Shown piece by piece: positions 8,823 through 10,672 of a DNA stretch of 15,621 bases. Under the pieces are notes generated by a model. The model was not told where the DNA came from. It did no database searches and was given only the letters and a program-made list of their open reading frames with translations. The stretch comes from a candidate division WOR-3 bacterium (lineage in GTDB: Bacteria > Hydrothermota > Tepidihabitantia > Tepidihabitantales > CAIPLT01). The stretch lies in assembly GCA_965649215.1 (NCBI GenBank), contig CBFGJZ010000017.1, forward strand, positions 21,043 through 36,663. The letters run 5' to 3'. Position 1 is the first letter of the stretch. Every line of letters starts with the position of its first letter. Made by a program: the position numbers and the translations under genes.

Positions 8823-9791
8823 ATGAAAAAATTTCCCAAACCAAATGTTGTGGTTAGTAAGTGTCTTGGTTTTGCTAAATGCCGTTATAATGGCGATATT
8901 GTGTTGGATTATACCGTTGACCAGCTAAAACCATTTGTTAATTATATCACGGTCTGTCCAGAAGTTGAGATTGGCTTAGGCGTGCCCCGTGATCCGATTC
9001 GAGTGATCAGGGAAAAAGAAAAGTTATATCTTTATCAACCTGCTACTCAAAGAGATGTTACCAAAGAGATGGTATCGTTTGTTGATAAATATCTTAGTAA
9101 TTTATCAGATATTGATGGCTTTATCTTAAAATATCGTTCGCCCTCGTGCGGTATTAATAGTGTGAAAGTTTATCATGGTTTTCATCCAGATGCCCGAGCA
9201 ATTAGTGGCCAGGGAATTTTTGGTGGTGAAGTTATGAAGAGATTTGGTGGTTTAGCAATTGAAGACGAAGGTAGGTTAAAAAACTTTACAATTCGAGAGT
9301 ATTTTTTAACTAAATTATTCACTTTAGCTGGTTTTCGTTTATGTAAACAAACTAAACAGATGAAGGAACTGGTTAGATTTCAGACCGTTAATAAATTATT
9401 ATTTATGGCACACAGTCAAGTGAAATTAAGAGAATTGGGTAAGATTGTTGCCAATCAAGAGAAATTAAAAATCGATACGGTCTTTGCCGCCTATGAGAAA
9501 ACGCTGCATGAATTATTCAAAAAACCACCAACTTTTTCAGCTTGGATTAACGTTTTAATGCATGCCTTTGGTGGGGTGAGTGAGCAATTAAACAAAGCTG
9601 AACGGCAATTCTTTTTAAACTTAATTGAAGAGTATCGGGATGAGCGAATTCCGTTAAGTGTCCTTACTAAAATGATTGAAGGTTGGGCAGTGCGGTTTAA
9701 TAATGAGTATCTCTTAGAGCAGACTTTTTTAAATCCGTTTCCTAAAGAGTTAGTAGAAATTACTGATTCCGGCAAAGGTCGAAATCGTTGA
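8823..9791 (+). CDS. DUF523 (TudS thiouracil desulfidase domain) + DUF1722 (YbgA) fusion, RudS-like
   Basis: VSKCLG...CRYNG, CPEVEIGLGVPR and LKYRSPSCG (three Fe-S cysteines), EDEGRL, then DUF1722-type KLLFMAHS, NVLMHAFG and YLLEQTFLNPFPKEL. Confidence 0.9.
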   Translation: MKKFPKPNVVVSKCLGFAKCRYNGDIVLDYTVDQLKPFVNYITVCPEVEIGLGVPRDPIRVIREKEKLYLYQPATQRDVTKEMVSFVDKYLSNLSDIDGFILKYRSPSCGINSVKVYHGFHPDARAISGQGIFGGEVMKRFGGLAIEDEGRLKNFTIREYFLTKLFTLAGFRLCKQTKQMKELVRFQTVNKLLFMAHSQVKLRELGKIVANQEKLKIDTVFAAYEKTLHELFKKPPTFSAWINVLMHAFGGVSEQLNKAERQFFLNLIEEYRDERIPLSVLTKMIEGWAVRFNNEYLLEQTFLNPFPKELVEITDSGKGRNR

Positions 9792-10672
9792 GAGTTGGGT
9801 ATCCTTGTATTAACCGCACGATTGGTTGCACCGCTAATCGTACTTTTCGATTGGCTTCGTATTCAGACAAGAATCTTATTGAGAAGGTAACCAATAATCT
9901 TAATTGTCTTGAGCAGATATTACAATATAATGTTAACCATAATCTTTTATTTTTTCGGATCAGTTCCGATTTAGTGCCATTTGCATCACATCCGATCTGC
10001 ACTCTTAATTGGCAGAAATATTTTCAAGAGAGATTTAGACAAATCGGCAATTACATTAAAAAGCACAAGATGCGGATCTCCATGCATCCCGACCAGTTTG
10101 TTTTGATTAATTCACCAAATCAAGATGTTGTAAACAGAAGTATTAAGGAACTGATTTATCATTGTGAAGTATTGGATTTACTTGAATTGAATGCGACTGC
10201 CAAAGTGCAGATTCATATTGGTGGTGTTTATGGCGATAAAAGCCAAGCTATCCAGCGGTTTATTAATGTATATAAGAACTTACCATCCCTGATTAAAAAG
10301 CGACTGGTGATTGAGAATGACCATGTCTCATATAGTCTGAAAGATTGTCTTTTTGTATATAGGGAAATTGGTATTGCGGTGTTATTTGACTCATTCCATC
10401 ACGAATGCTTAAATAATAAAGAGACTATTAAGCAAGCAATGTTATTAGCAAGCCAAACCTGGCACAAAAGAGATGGTATTTTAATGGTTGATTACAGTAG
10501 TCAAAAGCCAAAAACCAATAAAGGTACTCATAGCGAGCACATTAATATAAGACATTTTAAGAAGTTTGTGCAAACGACCAGAGGTATTAAATTTGATTTG
10601 ATGCTTGAGATAAAGGATAAAGAGAAATCAGCATTATTAGCAAGAAAGATGCTTGATGAGTTTGGGCTTTAA
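9788..10672 (+). CDS. uvsE: UV DNA damage repair endonuclease
   Basis: RVGYPCIN, FFRISSDLVPFASHP, RISMHPDQF, HIGGVYGDK, RLVIEND, FDSFHH and MLEIKDKE. TTG start overlaps the upstream TGA (TTGA). Confidence 0.95.
   Translation: MRVGYPCINRTIGCTANRTFRLASYSDKNLIEKVTNNLNCLEQILQYNVNHNLLFFRISSDLVPFASHPICTLNWQKYFQERFRQIGNYIKKHKMRISMHPDQFVLINSPNQDVVNRSIKELIYHCEVLDLLELNATAKVQIHIGGVYGDKSQAIQRFINVYKNLPSLIKKRLVIENDHVSYSLKDCLFVYREIGIAVLFDSFHHECLNNKETIKQAMLLASQTWHKRDGILMVDYSSQKPKTNKGTHSEHINIRHFKKFVQTTRGIKFDLMLEIKDKEKSALLARKMLDEFGL

What the first reader, a model, noticed from the sequence alone, without database searches (positions are those of the whole stretch)
8823..10672. RudS-like thiouridine desulfidase coupled to UvsE: candidate joint tRNA+DNA photodamage module
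Seen: a DUF523-DUF1722 fusion with three intact Fe-S cysteines overlaps uvsE by 4 nt (TTGA, 9788-9791) behind one promoter. Known: DUF523 is the TudS thiouracil desulfidase domain. TudS-DUF1722 fusions (RudS) have been reported to remove the near-UV chromophore 4-thiouridine from tRNA, and DUF1722/ybgA genes usually sit beside the photolyase phr. Inference: here the light-dependent photolyase is replaced by the light-independent excision endonuclease UvsE, giving a different two-gene UV defence unit in an organism whose oxidoreductase genes suggest anaerobic metabolism. I do not know this pairing as described, but cannot search.
Basis: partly seen in the sequence, partly recalled or inferred. 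Interest (0 to 1): 0.72.

Follow-up and report, generated by a model that had tools for sequence, protein, structure and literature searches.

The report
RudS–UvsE UV-stress gene pair
Two overlapping genes in an uncultured hot-spring bacterium, one that strips a light-sensitive sulfur mark from transfer RNA and one that cuts UV-damaged DNA, form a pair kept together across a whole bacterial phylum, which extends a known link between this RNA enzyme and UV repair to a new repair partner.

Summary
ORF 8823-9791 is a full RudS-type protein: a TudS desulfidase domain fused to DUF1722, with all three cluster cysteines and the catalytic Glu/Ser/Ser/Arg motifs. ORF 9788-10672 is a UvsE/UVDE UV-damage endonuclease. 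The two overlap by TTGA.

The pairing is not a local accident.
- WOR-3 phylum: of 272 genomes, 56 carry both genes and 44 have them adjacent, in two gene orders.
- Thermodesulfobacteriota: 2 of 2 genomes with both genes have them adjacent.
- Ignavibacteria: the link is loose, 2 of 11.

Elsewhere RudS sits beside photolyase. That holds in 8 of 21 WOR-3 genomes with both, and in 10 of 80 diverse RudS loci. Once it sits beside a T4-endoV-type pyrimidine-dimer glycosylase. So RudS accompanies interchangeable UV-lesion repair enzymes.

It is right only at the level of the locus.

Canonical ThiI is missing. A ThiI-like PP-loop/NFACT-R protein, predicted in print to make s4U, is present.

I found no paper linking RudS or DUF1722 with UvsE. 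No expression or activity data exist.

Verdict: a real, conserved operon that is a new variant of the published RudS–photolyase light-stress neighbourhood. Interest is moderate.

The parts
8787..8816 (+). sigma-70-like promoter candidate (TTGACA, 18 nt, TAAATT). It ends 6 nt before the RudS ATG, so the mRNA would be leaderless or nearly so.
   Evidence: 10 of 12 matches. A TTGAC -35 box at the same distance from the start codon occurs in 6 of 6 family-f1 loci. This is a consensus match only; no transcript data exist.
8823..9791 (+). rudS: TudS desulfidase domain (residues 9-149) fused to DUF1722 (residues 191-307), 322 aa. Cluster cysteines are C14, C45 and C109. Catalytic-type residues are E47, R56, S106 and S108. 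The R21-Y22-N23 motif is present.
   Evidence: Residue roles come from the RudS paper PMC11417400 (passages read).
9788..9791 (+). TTGA overlap: the uvsE TTG start overlaps the rudS TGA stop, which suggests translational coupling.
   Evidence: sequence. The same -4 nt overlap occurs in 10 of 25 RudS>UvsE loci examined, and 0 to +8 nt in 10 more.
9788..10672 (+). uvsE: UV damage endonuclease (UVDE/UvdE family), 294 aa. H100, H143, E176, D201, H204, H248 and E274 are identical to the aligned residues of solved UVDEs. The 'probing finger' is Q103-F104.
   Evidence: (3TC3 E 1.4e-78; 2J6V E 4.6e-54).

Best explanation
This is a two-gene operon, rudS-uvsE, that deals with two kinds of sunlight damage together.

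RudS is a [4Fe-4S] desulfidase. It removes the sulfur from 4-thiouridine (s4U8) in tRNA. s4U8 is the near-UV chromophore whose cross-linking stalls aminoacylation and growth. UvsE nicks DNA 5' of cyclobutane dimers and 6-4 photoproducts, without needing light.

Both genes are probably transcribed from one promoter that abuts the rudS ATG. uvsE has a weak TTG start and no clear ribosome-binding site. It is probably translated by ribosomes that terminate on rudS (TTGA overlap), so the two proteins are made together.

Shown here: gene identities, intact catalytic motifs, the overlap, and conservation of the pair. Inferred: co-transcription, induction by light or UV, activity on s4U-tRNA, and any fitness benefit of the linkage.

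RudS is a companion of whichever UV-lesion enzyme a lineage uses (UvsE, photolyase, pyrimidine-dimer glycosylase). This fits the published idea that erasing s4U keeps translation going so that repair proteins can be made.
For: Identity:
- Pfam and NCBIfam assignments.
- The TudS cysteines align with solved 6Z92.
- UvsE matches solved UVDEs at E 1.4e-78.
- The residues that abolish RudS_KT activity when mutated are C17, C49, C114, E51, S111, S113 and R60 (PMC11417400). Their counterparts C14, C45, C109, E47, S106, S108 and R56 are invariant in 18 homologues.

Conservation in WOR-3, 272 genomes:
- UvdE is present in 62 genomes and DUF1722 in 106; 56 have both.
- The genes are adjacent in 44 of those 56. 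Families f1, f2, f3, f6 and f14 have the order RudS>UvsE; f15 has UvsE>RudS.
- 56 of 62 UvdE genomes have RudS, against 106 of 272 overall.

Coupling: 20 of 25 RudS>UvsE loci have -4 to +8 nt between the stop and the start.

Other phyla:
- Thermodesulfobacteriota: UvdE in 3 of 120 genomes. Two of these have RudS, and both pairs are adjacent with a 0-nt gap.
- Ignavibacteria: 2 of 11 genomes with both genes have them in one cluster.

Partner exchange:
- Among 80 diverse RudS loci, photolyase is next door or within the flank in 10 and UvsE in 3 (one of the 3 is itself a WOR-3 genome, G008). Pyr_excise, a T4 endoV-like glycosylase, is next door in 1.
- In WOR-3, RudS is directly beside photolyase in 8 of 21 genomes that have both.
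- The Thermodesulfobacteriota RudS linked to UvsE is sister (SH-aLRT 94) to RudS genes of the same phylum that have photolyase nearby.

Other light-stress neighbours: TspO-RudS-UvsE in family f14, and a 9-gene same-strand cluster ending in photolyase in G191.

Substrate plausibility: 104 of 107 DUF1722-positive WOR-3 genomes carry either a ThiI-like PP-loop/NFACT-R_2 gene or canonical ThiI.

DNA contigs of three hot-spring metagenome studies bridge the same junction at about 93-98% identity.
Against: - There is no transcript, protein or activity evidence. No RNA run holds the stretch.
- No light-sensing regulator (LitR/MerR type) lies next to the pair. The neighbours are an EamA transporter gene on the opposite strand and tRNA-Val.
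- The link is not universal. 12 of 56 WOR-3 genomes with both genes do not have them adjacent, including all 5 family-f13 genomes that have both.
- It is also absent in 9 of 11 Ignavibacteria with both genes, and in Bacillus thuringiensis, which has RudS and two UvsE copies far apart.
- All RudS-linked UvsE genes fall in one UvsE clade. The well-supported branches force only 2 changes of the label, so one ancient juxtaposition spread by descent and transfer cannot be excluded. Related genomes are not independent counts.
- Canonical ThiI is absent. The s4U role of the ThiI-like protein is a published prediction, not a demonstrated activity.
- A search for fused RudS-UvsE proteins found none (weak evidence).
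Confidence: 0.7

Rival explanations
1. Inherited synteny without functional coupling. The two genes became neighbours once in an ancestor of this UvsE subfamily. They have stayed together by inertia and occasional joint transfer, and each works independently.
For: - All 27 RudS-linked or RudS-near UvsE genes sit in one clade (99/94, 37 rows) of the UvsE tree. Starred branches force only 2 changes of the 'linked' label.
- The link is absent in family f13, in most Ignavibacteria and in B. thuringiensis.
Against: - The pair persists although UvsE identity to the window protein falls to about 50%.
- Two gene orders exist within WOR-3.
- The gap is held at -4 to +8 nt in 20 of 25 loci.
- RudS genes linked to UvsE are not one clade.
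- RudS independently neighbours photolyase and Pyr_excise.
Confidence: 0.15
2. RudS here takes a direct part in nucleic-acid damage processing with UvsE, rather than (or besides) erasing s4U from tRNA. For example, DUF1722 might bind damaged nucleic acid or the repair enzyme. Or the desulfidase might act on thiolated nucleotides released during damage.
For: - The genes are translationally coupled.
- DUF1722 or RudS recurs beside three mechanistically different UV-lesion enzymes.
- The genome lacks canonical ThiI.
- The RudS paper itself notes RudS-bearing groups that lack an E. coli-type ThiI.
Against: - The tRNA-binding motif R-Y-N and all catalytic residues of characterised RudS are conserved.
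- A ThiI-like PP-loop/NFACT-R gene with a NifU neighbour is present. It complements canonical ThiI across the phylum.
- Partners as unlike as photolyase, UvsE and endoV argue against a specific protein complex.
- No fusion proteins were found.
Confidence: 0.08
3. One reading: UvsE substitutes for a missing photolyase, giving a light-independent UV defence for a dark-living anaerobe.
For: - Photolyase is rarer than UvsE in WOR-3: 26 against 62 of 272 genomes.
- At the locus, UvsE occupies the place that photolyase holds beside RudS in other lineages.
Against: - This genome has a photolyase and uvrABC.
- G015 and G191 carry RudS, UvsE and photolyase in one cluster.
- Relatives of the stretch occur in runs labelled hot springs metagenome, which are not obviously dark habitats.
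Confidence: 0.05

Closest known systems
RudS (TudS-DUF1722 tRNA 4-thiouridine desulfidase; RudS_KT PP_0741 of Pseudomonas putida, RudS_TT, RudS_ST; Jamontas et al., NAR 2024, PMC11417400)
   Same: Same two-domain architecture, three cluster cysteines, catalytic Glu/Ser/Ser/Arg and the R-Y-N motif. Like the published genes, it lies in a UV/light-related gene neighbourhood.
   Different: The published neighbourhoods are photolyase, LitR-type regulators and carotenoid genes. The main text and the one supplementary file held as text contain no 'UvsE', 'UvdE' or 'endonuclease'. Here the partner is UvsE, translationally coupled, with no regulator nearby. The organism has a ThiI-like PP-loop/NFACT-R gene instead of canonical ThiI. 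Activity is untested.
UVDE/UvsE UV damage endonucleases (Sulfolobus acidocaldarius 3TC3/4GLE; Thermus thermophilus 2J6V; Bacillus subtilis UvsE)
   Same: Full-length match to the solved enzymes (E 1.4e-78 and 4.6e-54). The aligned His/Glu/Asp positions are conserved. It scores above the TIGR00629 cut-off.
   Different: The probing finger is Gln-Phe rather than Gln-Tyr. It belongs to an 'IGYPCIN' N-terminal subfamily distinct from the Bacillus copies and from a second Ignavibacteria subfamily. It is coupled to rudS.
ybgA-phr (E. coli) and phrB-litR-rudS (Pseudomonas) light-responsive operons
   Same: A DUF1722-containing gene is co-located with a pyrimidine-dimer repair gene (PMC11417400). The same arrangement occurs in WOR-3 families f5, f25 and f31 and in 7 diverse loci.
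   Different: The repair partner is a light-independent endonuclease. The genome keeps its photolyase elsewhere, on contig C18.

Membership tests
RudS (TudS-DUF1722 fusion) | N-terminal TudS/DUF523 desulfidase domain fused to C-terminal DUF1722 in one polypeptide | tested here: met
   PF04463, residues 9-149, E 8.3e-36; PF08349, residues 191-307, E 1e-40.
RudS (TudS-DUF1722 fusion) | Three cysteines that hold the [4Fe-4S] cluster | tested here: met
   C14, C45 and C109 align with C10, C43 and C104 of TudS 6Z92 (numbering from Table 1 of PMC11417400). They are invariant in 18 homologues.
RudS (TudS-DUF1722 fusion) | Catalytic Glu, two Ser and Arg (RudS_KT E51, S111, S113, R60) and the tRNA-binding R24-Y25-N26 | tested here: met
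   E47 (CPE), S106 and S108 (SPSCG), R56 and R21-Y22-N23 are present. All but N23 are invariant in alignment A1. The mapping to RudS_KT is by motif and spacing, because the RudS_KT sequence was not in hand.
RudS (TudS-DUF1722 fusion) | DUF1722 residues Ser243/Arg244 of RudS_KT that contact tRNA | tested here: inconclusive
   The corresponding stretch is 'TFSAWINV' (S239). The following position varies among homologues. No alignment to RudS_KT itself was made.
RudS (TudS-DUF1722 fusion) | Removes s4U from tRNA | not testable with these tools
   Needs purified protein or heterologous expression with tRNA LC-MS.
RudS (TudS-DUF1722 fusion) | An s4U8 synthase in the same genome (substrate available) | tested here: inconclusive
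   Canonical ThiI (TIGR00342) was not found; the best hit scores 30.6 bits against a cut-off of 264.5. A ThiI-like PP-loop/NFACT-R_2 protein is present, with SGGLDS, CxxC and GRSRKPQ motifs, next to a NifU-like gene. Its s4U role is a published prediction only.
UVDE / UvsE UV damage endonuclease | Full-length match to the family model above the curated cut-off | tested here: met
   TIGR00629, 193.7 bits against 124.45; PF03851, E 2e-63.
UVDE / UvsE UV damage endonuclease | Conserved His/Glu/Asp positions of the three-metal site | tested here: met
   H100, H143, E176, D201, H204, H248 and E274 are identical to the aligned residues of 3TC3 and 2J6V-type chains. That these are the metal ligands is recalled from the T. 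thermophilus structure paper, not read here.
UVDE / UvsE UV damage endonuclease | 'Probing finger' Gln-Tyr (Gln104-Tyr105 in TthUVDE) | tested here: inconclusive
   The window protein has Q103-F104, where both solved enzymes have Q-Y. This is a conservative aromatic change.
LitR-controlled light-inducible RudS/photolyase operon | Adjacent photolyase and/or MerR/LitR-type B12-dependent regulator | tested here: not met
   The neighbours are EamA (7869-8744, minus strand) and tRNA-Val (11053-11126). Photolyase is on another contig. A LitR gene elsewhere in the genome was not searched for.

The most novel reading that the evidence does not exclude
RudS is a general companion of lesion-specific UV repair enzymes, and rudS-uvsE is a mobile 'dark' two-gene cassette. 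uvsE of the 'IGYPCIN' subfamily depends on rudS translation for its own expression. Erasing s4U from tRNA is a required first step for UvsE-mediated recovery from combined UVA and UVB/C damage. The cassette has moved between WOR-3, Thermodesulfobacteriota and Ignavibacteria. In Thermodesulfobacteriota the UvsE gene was placed beside a resident RudS whose sister genes pair with photolyase. If true, RNA de-modification and DNA excision repair form one selected unit, not two independent defences.
Probability: 0.3. Interest if true: 0.6.

Novelty: new variant of a known kind. Interest (0 to 1): 0.42.

Why it matters
RudS was described in 2024. Its physiological role rests on over-expression in E. 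coli and on its neighbourhood with photolyase genes.

A second, independent and tightly coupled partnership with a light-independent UV endonuclease is conserved across a candidate phylum and recurs in two others. Single cases beside a pyrimidine-dimer glycosylase and beside TspO add to it. Together these strengthen the case that s4U erasure belongs to the bacterial UV response as such, not to photoreactivation in particular.

The finding also supplies natural two-gene constructs for a direct test of synergy between tRNA de-thiolation and DNA repair.

As a by-product, the phylum-wide complementarity of canonical ThiI and the ThiI-like PP-loop/NFACT-R protein in RudS-bearing genomes supports a 2014 prediction about an alternative s4U synthase. 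It may also explain the 'ThiI-less' RudS groups noted in the RudS paper.

Tried and rejected
- Fusion idea. G039 showed a 608-aa open frame over DUF1722, which suggested a RudS-UvsE fusion. ORF listing showed two separate genes with a long spurious upstream extension in a high-GC genome.
- A 'longer' protein search for fused forms gave only 2 hits: PF04463+PF03901 (942 aa) and PF04463 alone (581 aa). Neither contains UvdE or photolyase. The tool says this is weak evidence.
- Expression. No RNA holder is listed, and nothing from the one metatranscriptome run X8 lay on the stretch. This is no evidence either way.
- Weak PF02568/TIGR00342 hits in the own genome were checked. They turned out to be MnmA, GuaA, a TtcA/TilS-like protein and the PP-loop/NFACT-R protein, not canonical ThiI.
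- Operator search. Upstream regions of 23 loci were compared by eye. Only the -35/-10 boxes are shared within family f1. In f14 and high-GC f2 the upstream DNA is coding (TspO or an unassigned ORF). No conserved operator was seen, and no formal motif search was run.
- No terminator-like site follows uvsE on the + strand.
- Complex prediction for RudS with UvsE was considered and not run. I do not claim that the proteins bind, and the varied partners argue against a specific complex.
- A metagenome-contig scan from the UvsE side was considered and not run.
- Earlier scan notes on RudS concern prophage copies and a selenocysteine variant, and do not bear on this pairing.
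Full report
**1. What is in the window.**

The window is G000:C17:21043-36663 of a 1.64-Mb assembly with 39 contigs, 95.1% complete. Homologues of its RudS protein are named 'candidate division WOR-3 bacterium' by their sources.

ORF 8823-9791 (+, 322 aa) carries PF04463 (2-thiouracil desulfurase/TudS, residues 9-149, E 8.3e-36) and PF08349 (DUF1722, residues 191-307, E 1e-40). ORF 9788-10672 (+, TTG start, 294 aa) carries PF03851 UvdE (E 2e-63) and passes TIGR00629 (193.7 bits, cut-off 124.45). 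The TTG at 9788 overlaps the TGA at 9789-9791.

TTG is the only start in the frame that opens after the stop at 9764-9766. The N-terminal 'RVGYPC' aligns with the first strand of solved UVDEs. Relatives begin at the same position with ATG, GTG or TTG.

Flanking features:
- An EamA transporter gene on the opposite strand (7869-8744).
- After a 380-nt gap without a predicted terminator, tRNA-Val(TAC) at 11053-11126, with its own promoter-like site.

**2. Are the proteins intact?**

RudS:
- C14, C45 and C109 align with the cluster cysteines C10, C43 and C104 of TudS 6Z92 (numbering from Table 1 of PMC11417400).
- The RudS paper reports that mutating C17, C49, C114, E51, S111, S113 or R60 of RudS_KT abolishes activity. 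It also reports that R24, Y25, N26, S243 and R244 matter for tRNA binding (passages).
- By motif and spacing, the window protein has C14, C45, C109, E47, S106, S108, R56 and R21-Y22-N23. All but N23 are invariant in an alignment of 18 homologues from several phyla.
- The DUF1722 Ser/Arg pair could not be mapped, because the RudS_KT sequence was not in hand.

UvsE:
- It matches S. acidocaldarius UVDE 3TC3 (E 1.4e-78) and T. thermophilus UVDE 2J6V (E 4.6e-54) over its full length.
- The aligned His/Glu/Asp positions are identical. Their role as metal ligands is recalled, not read.
- The 'probing finger' is Gln104-Tyr105 in TthUVDE (PMC3553973). Here it is Q103-F104.

**3. Is the adjacency more than a local accident?**

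I searched the 272 genomes held for the phylum with both Pfam models and compared places.
- UvdE over cut-off: 62 genomes. DUF1722 over cut-off: 106. Both: 56.
- In 44 of the 56 the two matches lie on one contig within 800 nt.
- 40 of these have the order RudS>UvsE (families f1, f2, f3, f6, f14). 4 have UvsE>RudS (family f15, one genus).

The 12 non-adjacent cases:
- Five genomes of family f13.
- G010, where the genes are on the same contig 9.5 kb apart.
- Six others on different contigs. At least one of these (G195) looks split at contig ends.

Some 'adjacent' UvsE copies are fragments or broken:
- G174 has a truncated copy beside RudS and a full copy elsewhere.
- G043 has two in-frame TAA codons.
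- G208, G219 and G011 are cut by contig ends.

Related genomes are not independent, so these are counts, not statistics.

In 25 RudS>UvsE loci whose DNA I read, the distance from the rudS stop to the uvsE start was:

| Distance | Loci |
|---|---|
| -4 nt | 10 |
| 0 to +8 nt | 10 |
| 61 nt | 3 |
| 174 nt | 1 |
| 358 nt | 1 |

In f15 the uvsE stop overlaps the rudS start by 14 nt. There the pair is flanked by an alpha/beta hydrolase gene and a Rieske-type gene.

**4. Outside the phylum.**

A scan of one genome per species with a RudS alignment returned 80 diverse loci.

tblastn over all 80 found:
- UvsE in 3 loci: L015, L041 and L087.
  - L015 turned out to be WOR-3 genome G008.
  - L041 (Ignavibacteria) has the order TspO-RudS-NmrA/DUF2867-UvsE.
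  - L087 (Thermodesulfobacteriota) has a 0-nt gap.
- A class-I-type photolyase in 3 loci: L050, L053 and L056.

My script called a RudS ORF in 76 of the 80 loci. Pfam was run on 81 of their 97 same-strand neighbours within 300 nt. The 16 left out are redundant neighbours in Bacillus cereus-group-like loci. The Pfam scan gave:

| Neighbour of RudS | Loci |
|---|---|
| Photolyase (PF00875) | L021, L022, L057, L066, L077, L078, L085 (7 more) |
| UvdE | L015, L087 |
| Pyr_excise (T4 endoV-like pyrimidine-dimer glycosylase) | L065 (Coatesbacteria) |
| Fpg/Nei-type glycosylase | L059 |
| SbcD or SbcC | L039, L049, L060 |
| TspO | L041, L059, L070 |
| Phytoene synthase | L045 |
| RelA/SpoT | L046 |

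Conditional checks in other groups:

| Group | Genomes searched | With UvdE | Of those, with DUF1722 | Adjacent or same cluster |
|---|---|---|---|---|
| Class around the Thermodesulfobacteriota genome | 120 | 3 | 2 | 2 adjacent |
| Ignavibacteria sample | 201 | 12 | 11 | 2 in one cluster |
| B. thuringiensis | 1 | 1 (two copies) | 1 | 0; megabases away |

**5. Trees.**

UvsE tree (46 rows, careful method):
- All 27 RudS-linked or RudS-near UvsE genes lie in one clade (support 99/94, 37 rows). They share an 'IGYPCIN' N-terminus.
- That clade also holds 10 unlinked copies.
- The five unlinked Ignavibacteria copies I fetched form a separate subfamily (100/100).
- The two Bacillus copies are separate again.
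- Linked UvsE genes of Thermodesulfobacteriota and Ignavibacteria sit among WOR-3 f14/f6 (88/86). This suggests transfer between phyla.
- Starred branches force only 2 changes of the 'linked' label, so few origins are possible.

RudS tree (81 rows, quick method, deep nodes weak):
- UvsE-linked RudS genes are scattered. f1+f3 lie inside a starred set of 22 rows together with Bacteroidota and others. f2, f14 and f6 lie elsewhere.
- The Thermodesulfobacteriota UvsE-linked RudS is sister (SH-aLRT 94) to RudS genes of the same phylum that have photolyase nearby.

I read this as a repair partner exchanged beside a resident RudS, but the support is moderate.

**6. Photolyase, NER and the 'replacement' idea.**

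The genome has a 454-aa photolyase (PF00875 E 2.5e-37, PF03441 E 1.2e-77) on contig C18. It lies between a radical-SAM gene and a nitroreductase gene. The genome also has uvrA, uvrB and uvrC above their cut-offs. UvsE therefore does not replace photolyase in this organism.

Across WOR-3, photolyase is rarer than UvsE: 26 of 272 genomes. 21 of those 26 also have RudS. Comparing by hand gives:

| RudS relative to photolyase | Genomes |
|---|---|
| Directly beside | 8 (G013, G020, G023, G025, G088, G122, G124, G126) |
| Within about 4.3 kb | 3 (G015, G186, G191) |
| 7 kb away | 1 (G204) |
| Elsewhere or on another contig | 9, including G000 |

G020 has UvsE on another contig but RudS beside photolyase. 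G191 (one contig) has TspO-RudS-UvsE-RibD_C-ADH-PTPS-glycosyltransferase-photolyase, all on one strand.

**7. Is there a substrate?**

Canonical ThiI was not found. The best TIGR00342 match scores 30.6 bits against a cut-off of 264.5. The weak hits are other PP-loop enzymes.

One of them, at G000 C6:24778-25743 (321 aa), is a PP-loop domain fused to NFACT-R_2 (PF18297, E 8.1e-17). It has SGGLDS, a CxxC and GRSRKPQ, and is followed by a NifU-like gene. Burroughs and Aravind 2014 (PMC4075521, passages) describe exactly this ThiI-like+DUF814 type. They note its GRxRxxQ motif, its near mutual exclusion with THUMP-ThiI and its NifU/IscS links in some lineages, and they predict that it makes s4U.

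In WOR-3:
- PF18297 is present in 206 of 272 genomes.
- By my reading, 99 of the 107 genomes with a DUF1722 match have it.
- Of the other 8, five have a full-length canonical ThiI (E <= 7.5e-72; three over the cut-off).
- Three have neither: G008 (76% complete), G015 (82%) and G044 (95%).

The RudS paper notes two RudS-bearing groups that lack an E. coli-type ThiI. It guesses at a differently built homologue.

**8. Regulation and habitat.**

A TTGACA-18-TAAATT site ends 6 nt before the rudS ATG. The six family-f1 loci share a TTGAC box at that distance, which suggests a leaderless or near-leaderless message. No regulator gene is adjacent.

No RNA run holds the stretch. DNA contigs from runs of three studies labelled hot springs metagenome bridge the rudS/uvsE junction. 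X1 record 3 is about 98% identical. X2 record 9 and X6 record 12 are about 93% identical.

**9. Novelty.**

- The RudS paper's main text has no 'UvsE', 'UvdE' or 'endonuclease'. The same holds for its one supplementary file held as text, where only the legend of Figure S10 is readable.
- No paper in the library holds DUF1722 with UvsE.
- Among 49 papers holding two of {UV damage endonuclease, DUF523, DUF1722, ybgA, UvdE, TudS}, none of the 25 listed combines an endonuclease term with a DUF523, DUF1722, ybgA or TudS term.
- None of 16 recent papers with UvsE/UvdE terms holds 'RudS'.
I did not test this lead.

**10. Verdict.**

The genes are known kinds. The concept that RudS belongs to UV/light-response loci is published. 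The UvsE partnership, its tight coupling, its phylum-wide conservation and the partner-exchange pattern are new as far as the searched literature goes. Function and co-regulation remain inferred.

Noticed in passing
G000 contig C6:24778-25743 (L002:1495-2460) and L002:2476-2715: A ThiI-like PP-loop ATPase fused to NFACT-R_2, with SGGLDS, CxxC and GRSRKPQ motifs, is followed by a NifU-like gene. Across WOR-3, DUF1722-positive genomes have this type or canonical ThiI in 104 of 107 cases. This supports the 2014 prediction of an alternative s4U synthase and may explain the 'ThiI-less' RudS groups.
   Followed up: partly
L107 (G191:C1:1223672-1230900): A nine-gene same-strand cluster: TspO, RudS, UvsE, RibD_C, Zn-ADH-like, 6-pyruvoyl-tetrahydropterin synthase, a GT1 glycosyltransferase, photolyase and one more ORF. 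It may be a complete photoprotection island that includes synthesis of the photolyase cofactor.
   Followed up: partly
L065:4972-5376 (Candidatus Coatesbacteria chromosome): RudS is followed after 2 nt by a T4 endonuclease V-like pyrimidine-dimer DNA glycosylase (PF03013, E 1.4e-24). A DUF2867 gene lies upstream. This is a third kind of UV-lesion enzyme beside RudS.
   Followed up: no
L126-L130 versus L041, L131 (Ignavibacteria): Ignavibacteria carry two UvsE subfamilies. The 'RLGLCC' N-terminal type is never near RudS in the five genomes fetched. The 'IGYPCIN' type lies about 1.8 kb from RudS in both genomes that have it.
   Followed up: partly
L014:2709-3872 (G143): This UvsE has a C-terminal extension matching DUF2007 ('putative prokaryotic signal transducing protein', E 6.8e-7).
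   Followed up: no
L046:5003-7222; L039, L049, L060; L059:5029-5802: Other same-strand RudS neighbours: a RelA/SpoT (p)ppGpp enzyme in an Anaerolineales genome, SbcC or SbcD in three Bacillaceae, and an Fpg/Nei-type glycosylase after TspO-RudS in an uncultured bacterium.
   Followed up: no
window 14193-15621 and 11053-11126: A 16S rRNA gene (Rfam, 1375.7 bits) is cut off at the end of the window, which is also the contig end. tRNA-Val(TAC) has a strong promoter-like site at 10932-10959 (11 of 12 matches, with TG).
   Followed up: no
window 583-2418: An amino-acid permease (PF13520) is fused to a C-terminal PTS EIIA-2 domain (residues 478-602, E 4.8e-22). This suggests a transporter regulated through the PTS.
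   Followed up: no
window 11234-11755: A 173-aa protein with two CxxC pairs has only a sub-threshold NMD3 match (24.3 bits against a cut-off of 24.9). It lies just before groES-groEL (11799-13733).
   Followed up: no
L105 (G174:C1:2247310-2249612) and G043:C21:68255-68863: Decaying copies of the pair. G174 keeps TspO-RudS with a truncated UvsE (186 aa) and has a full UvsE elsewhere. The UvsE of G043 has two in-frame TAA codons.
   Followed up: no
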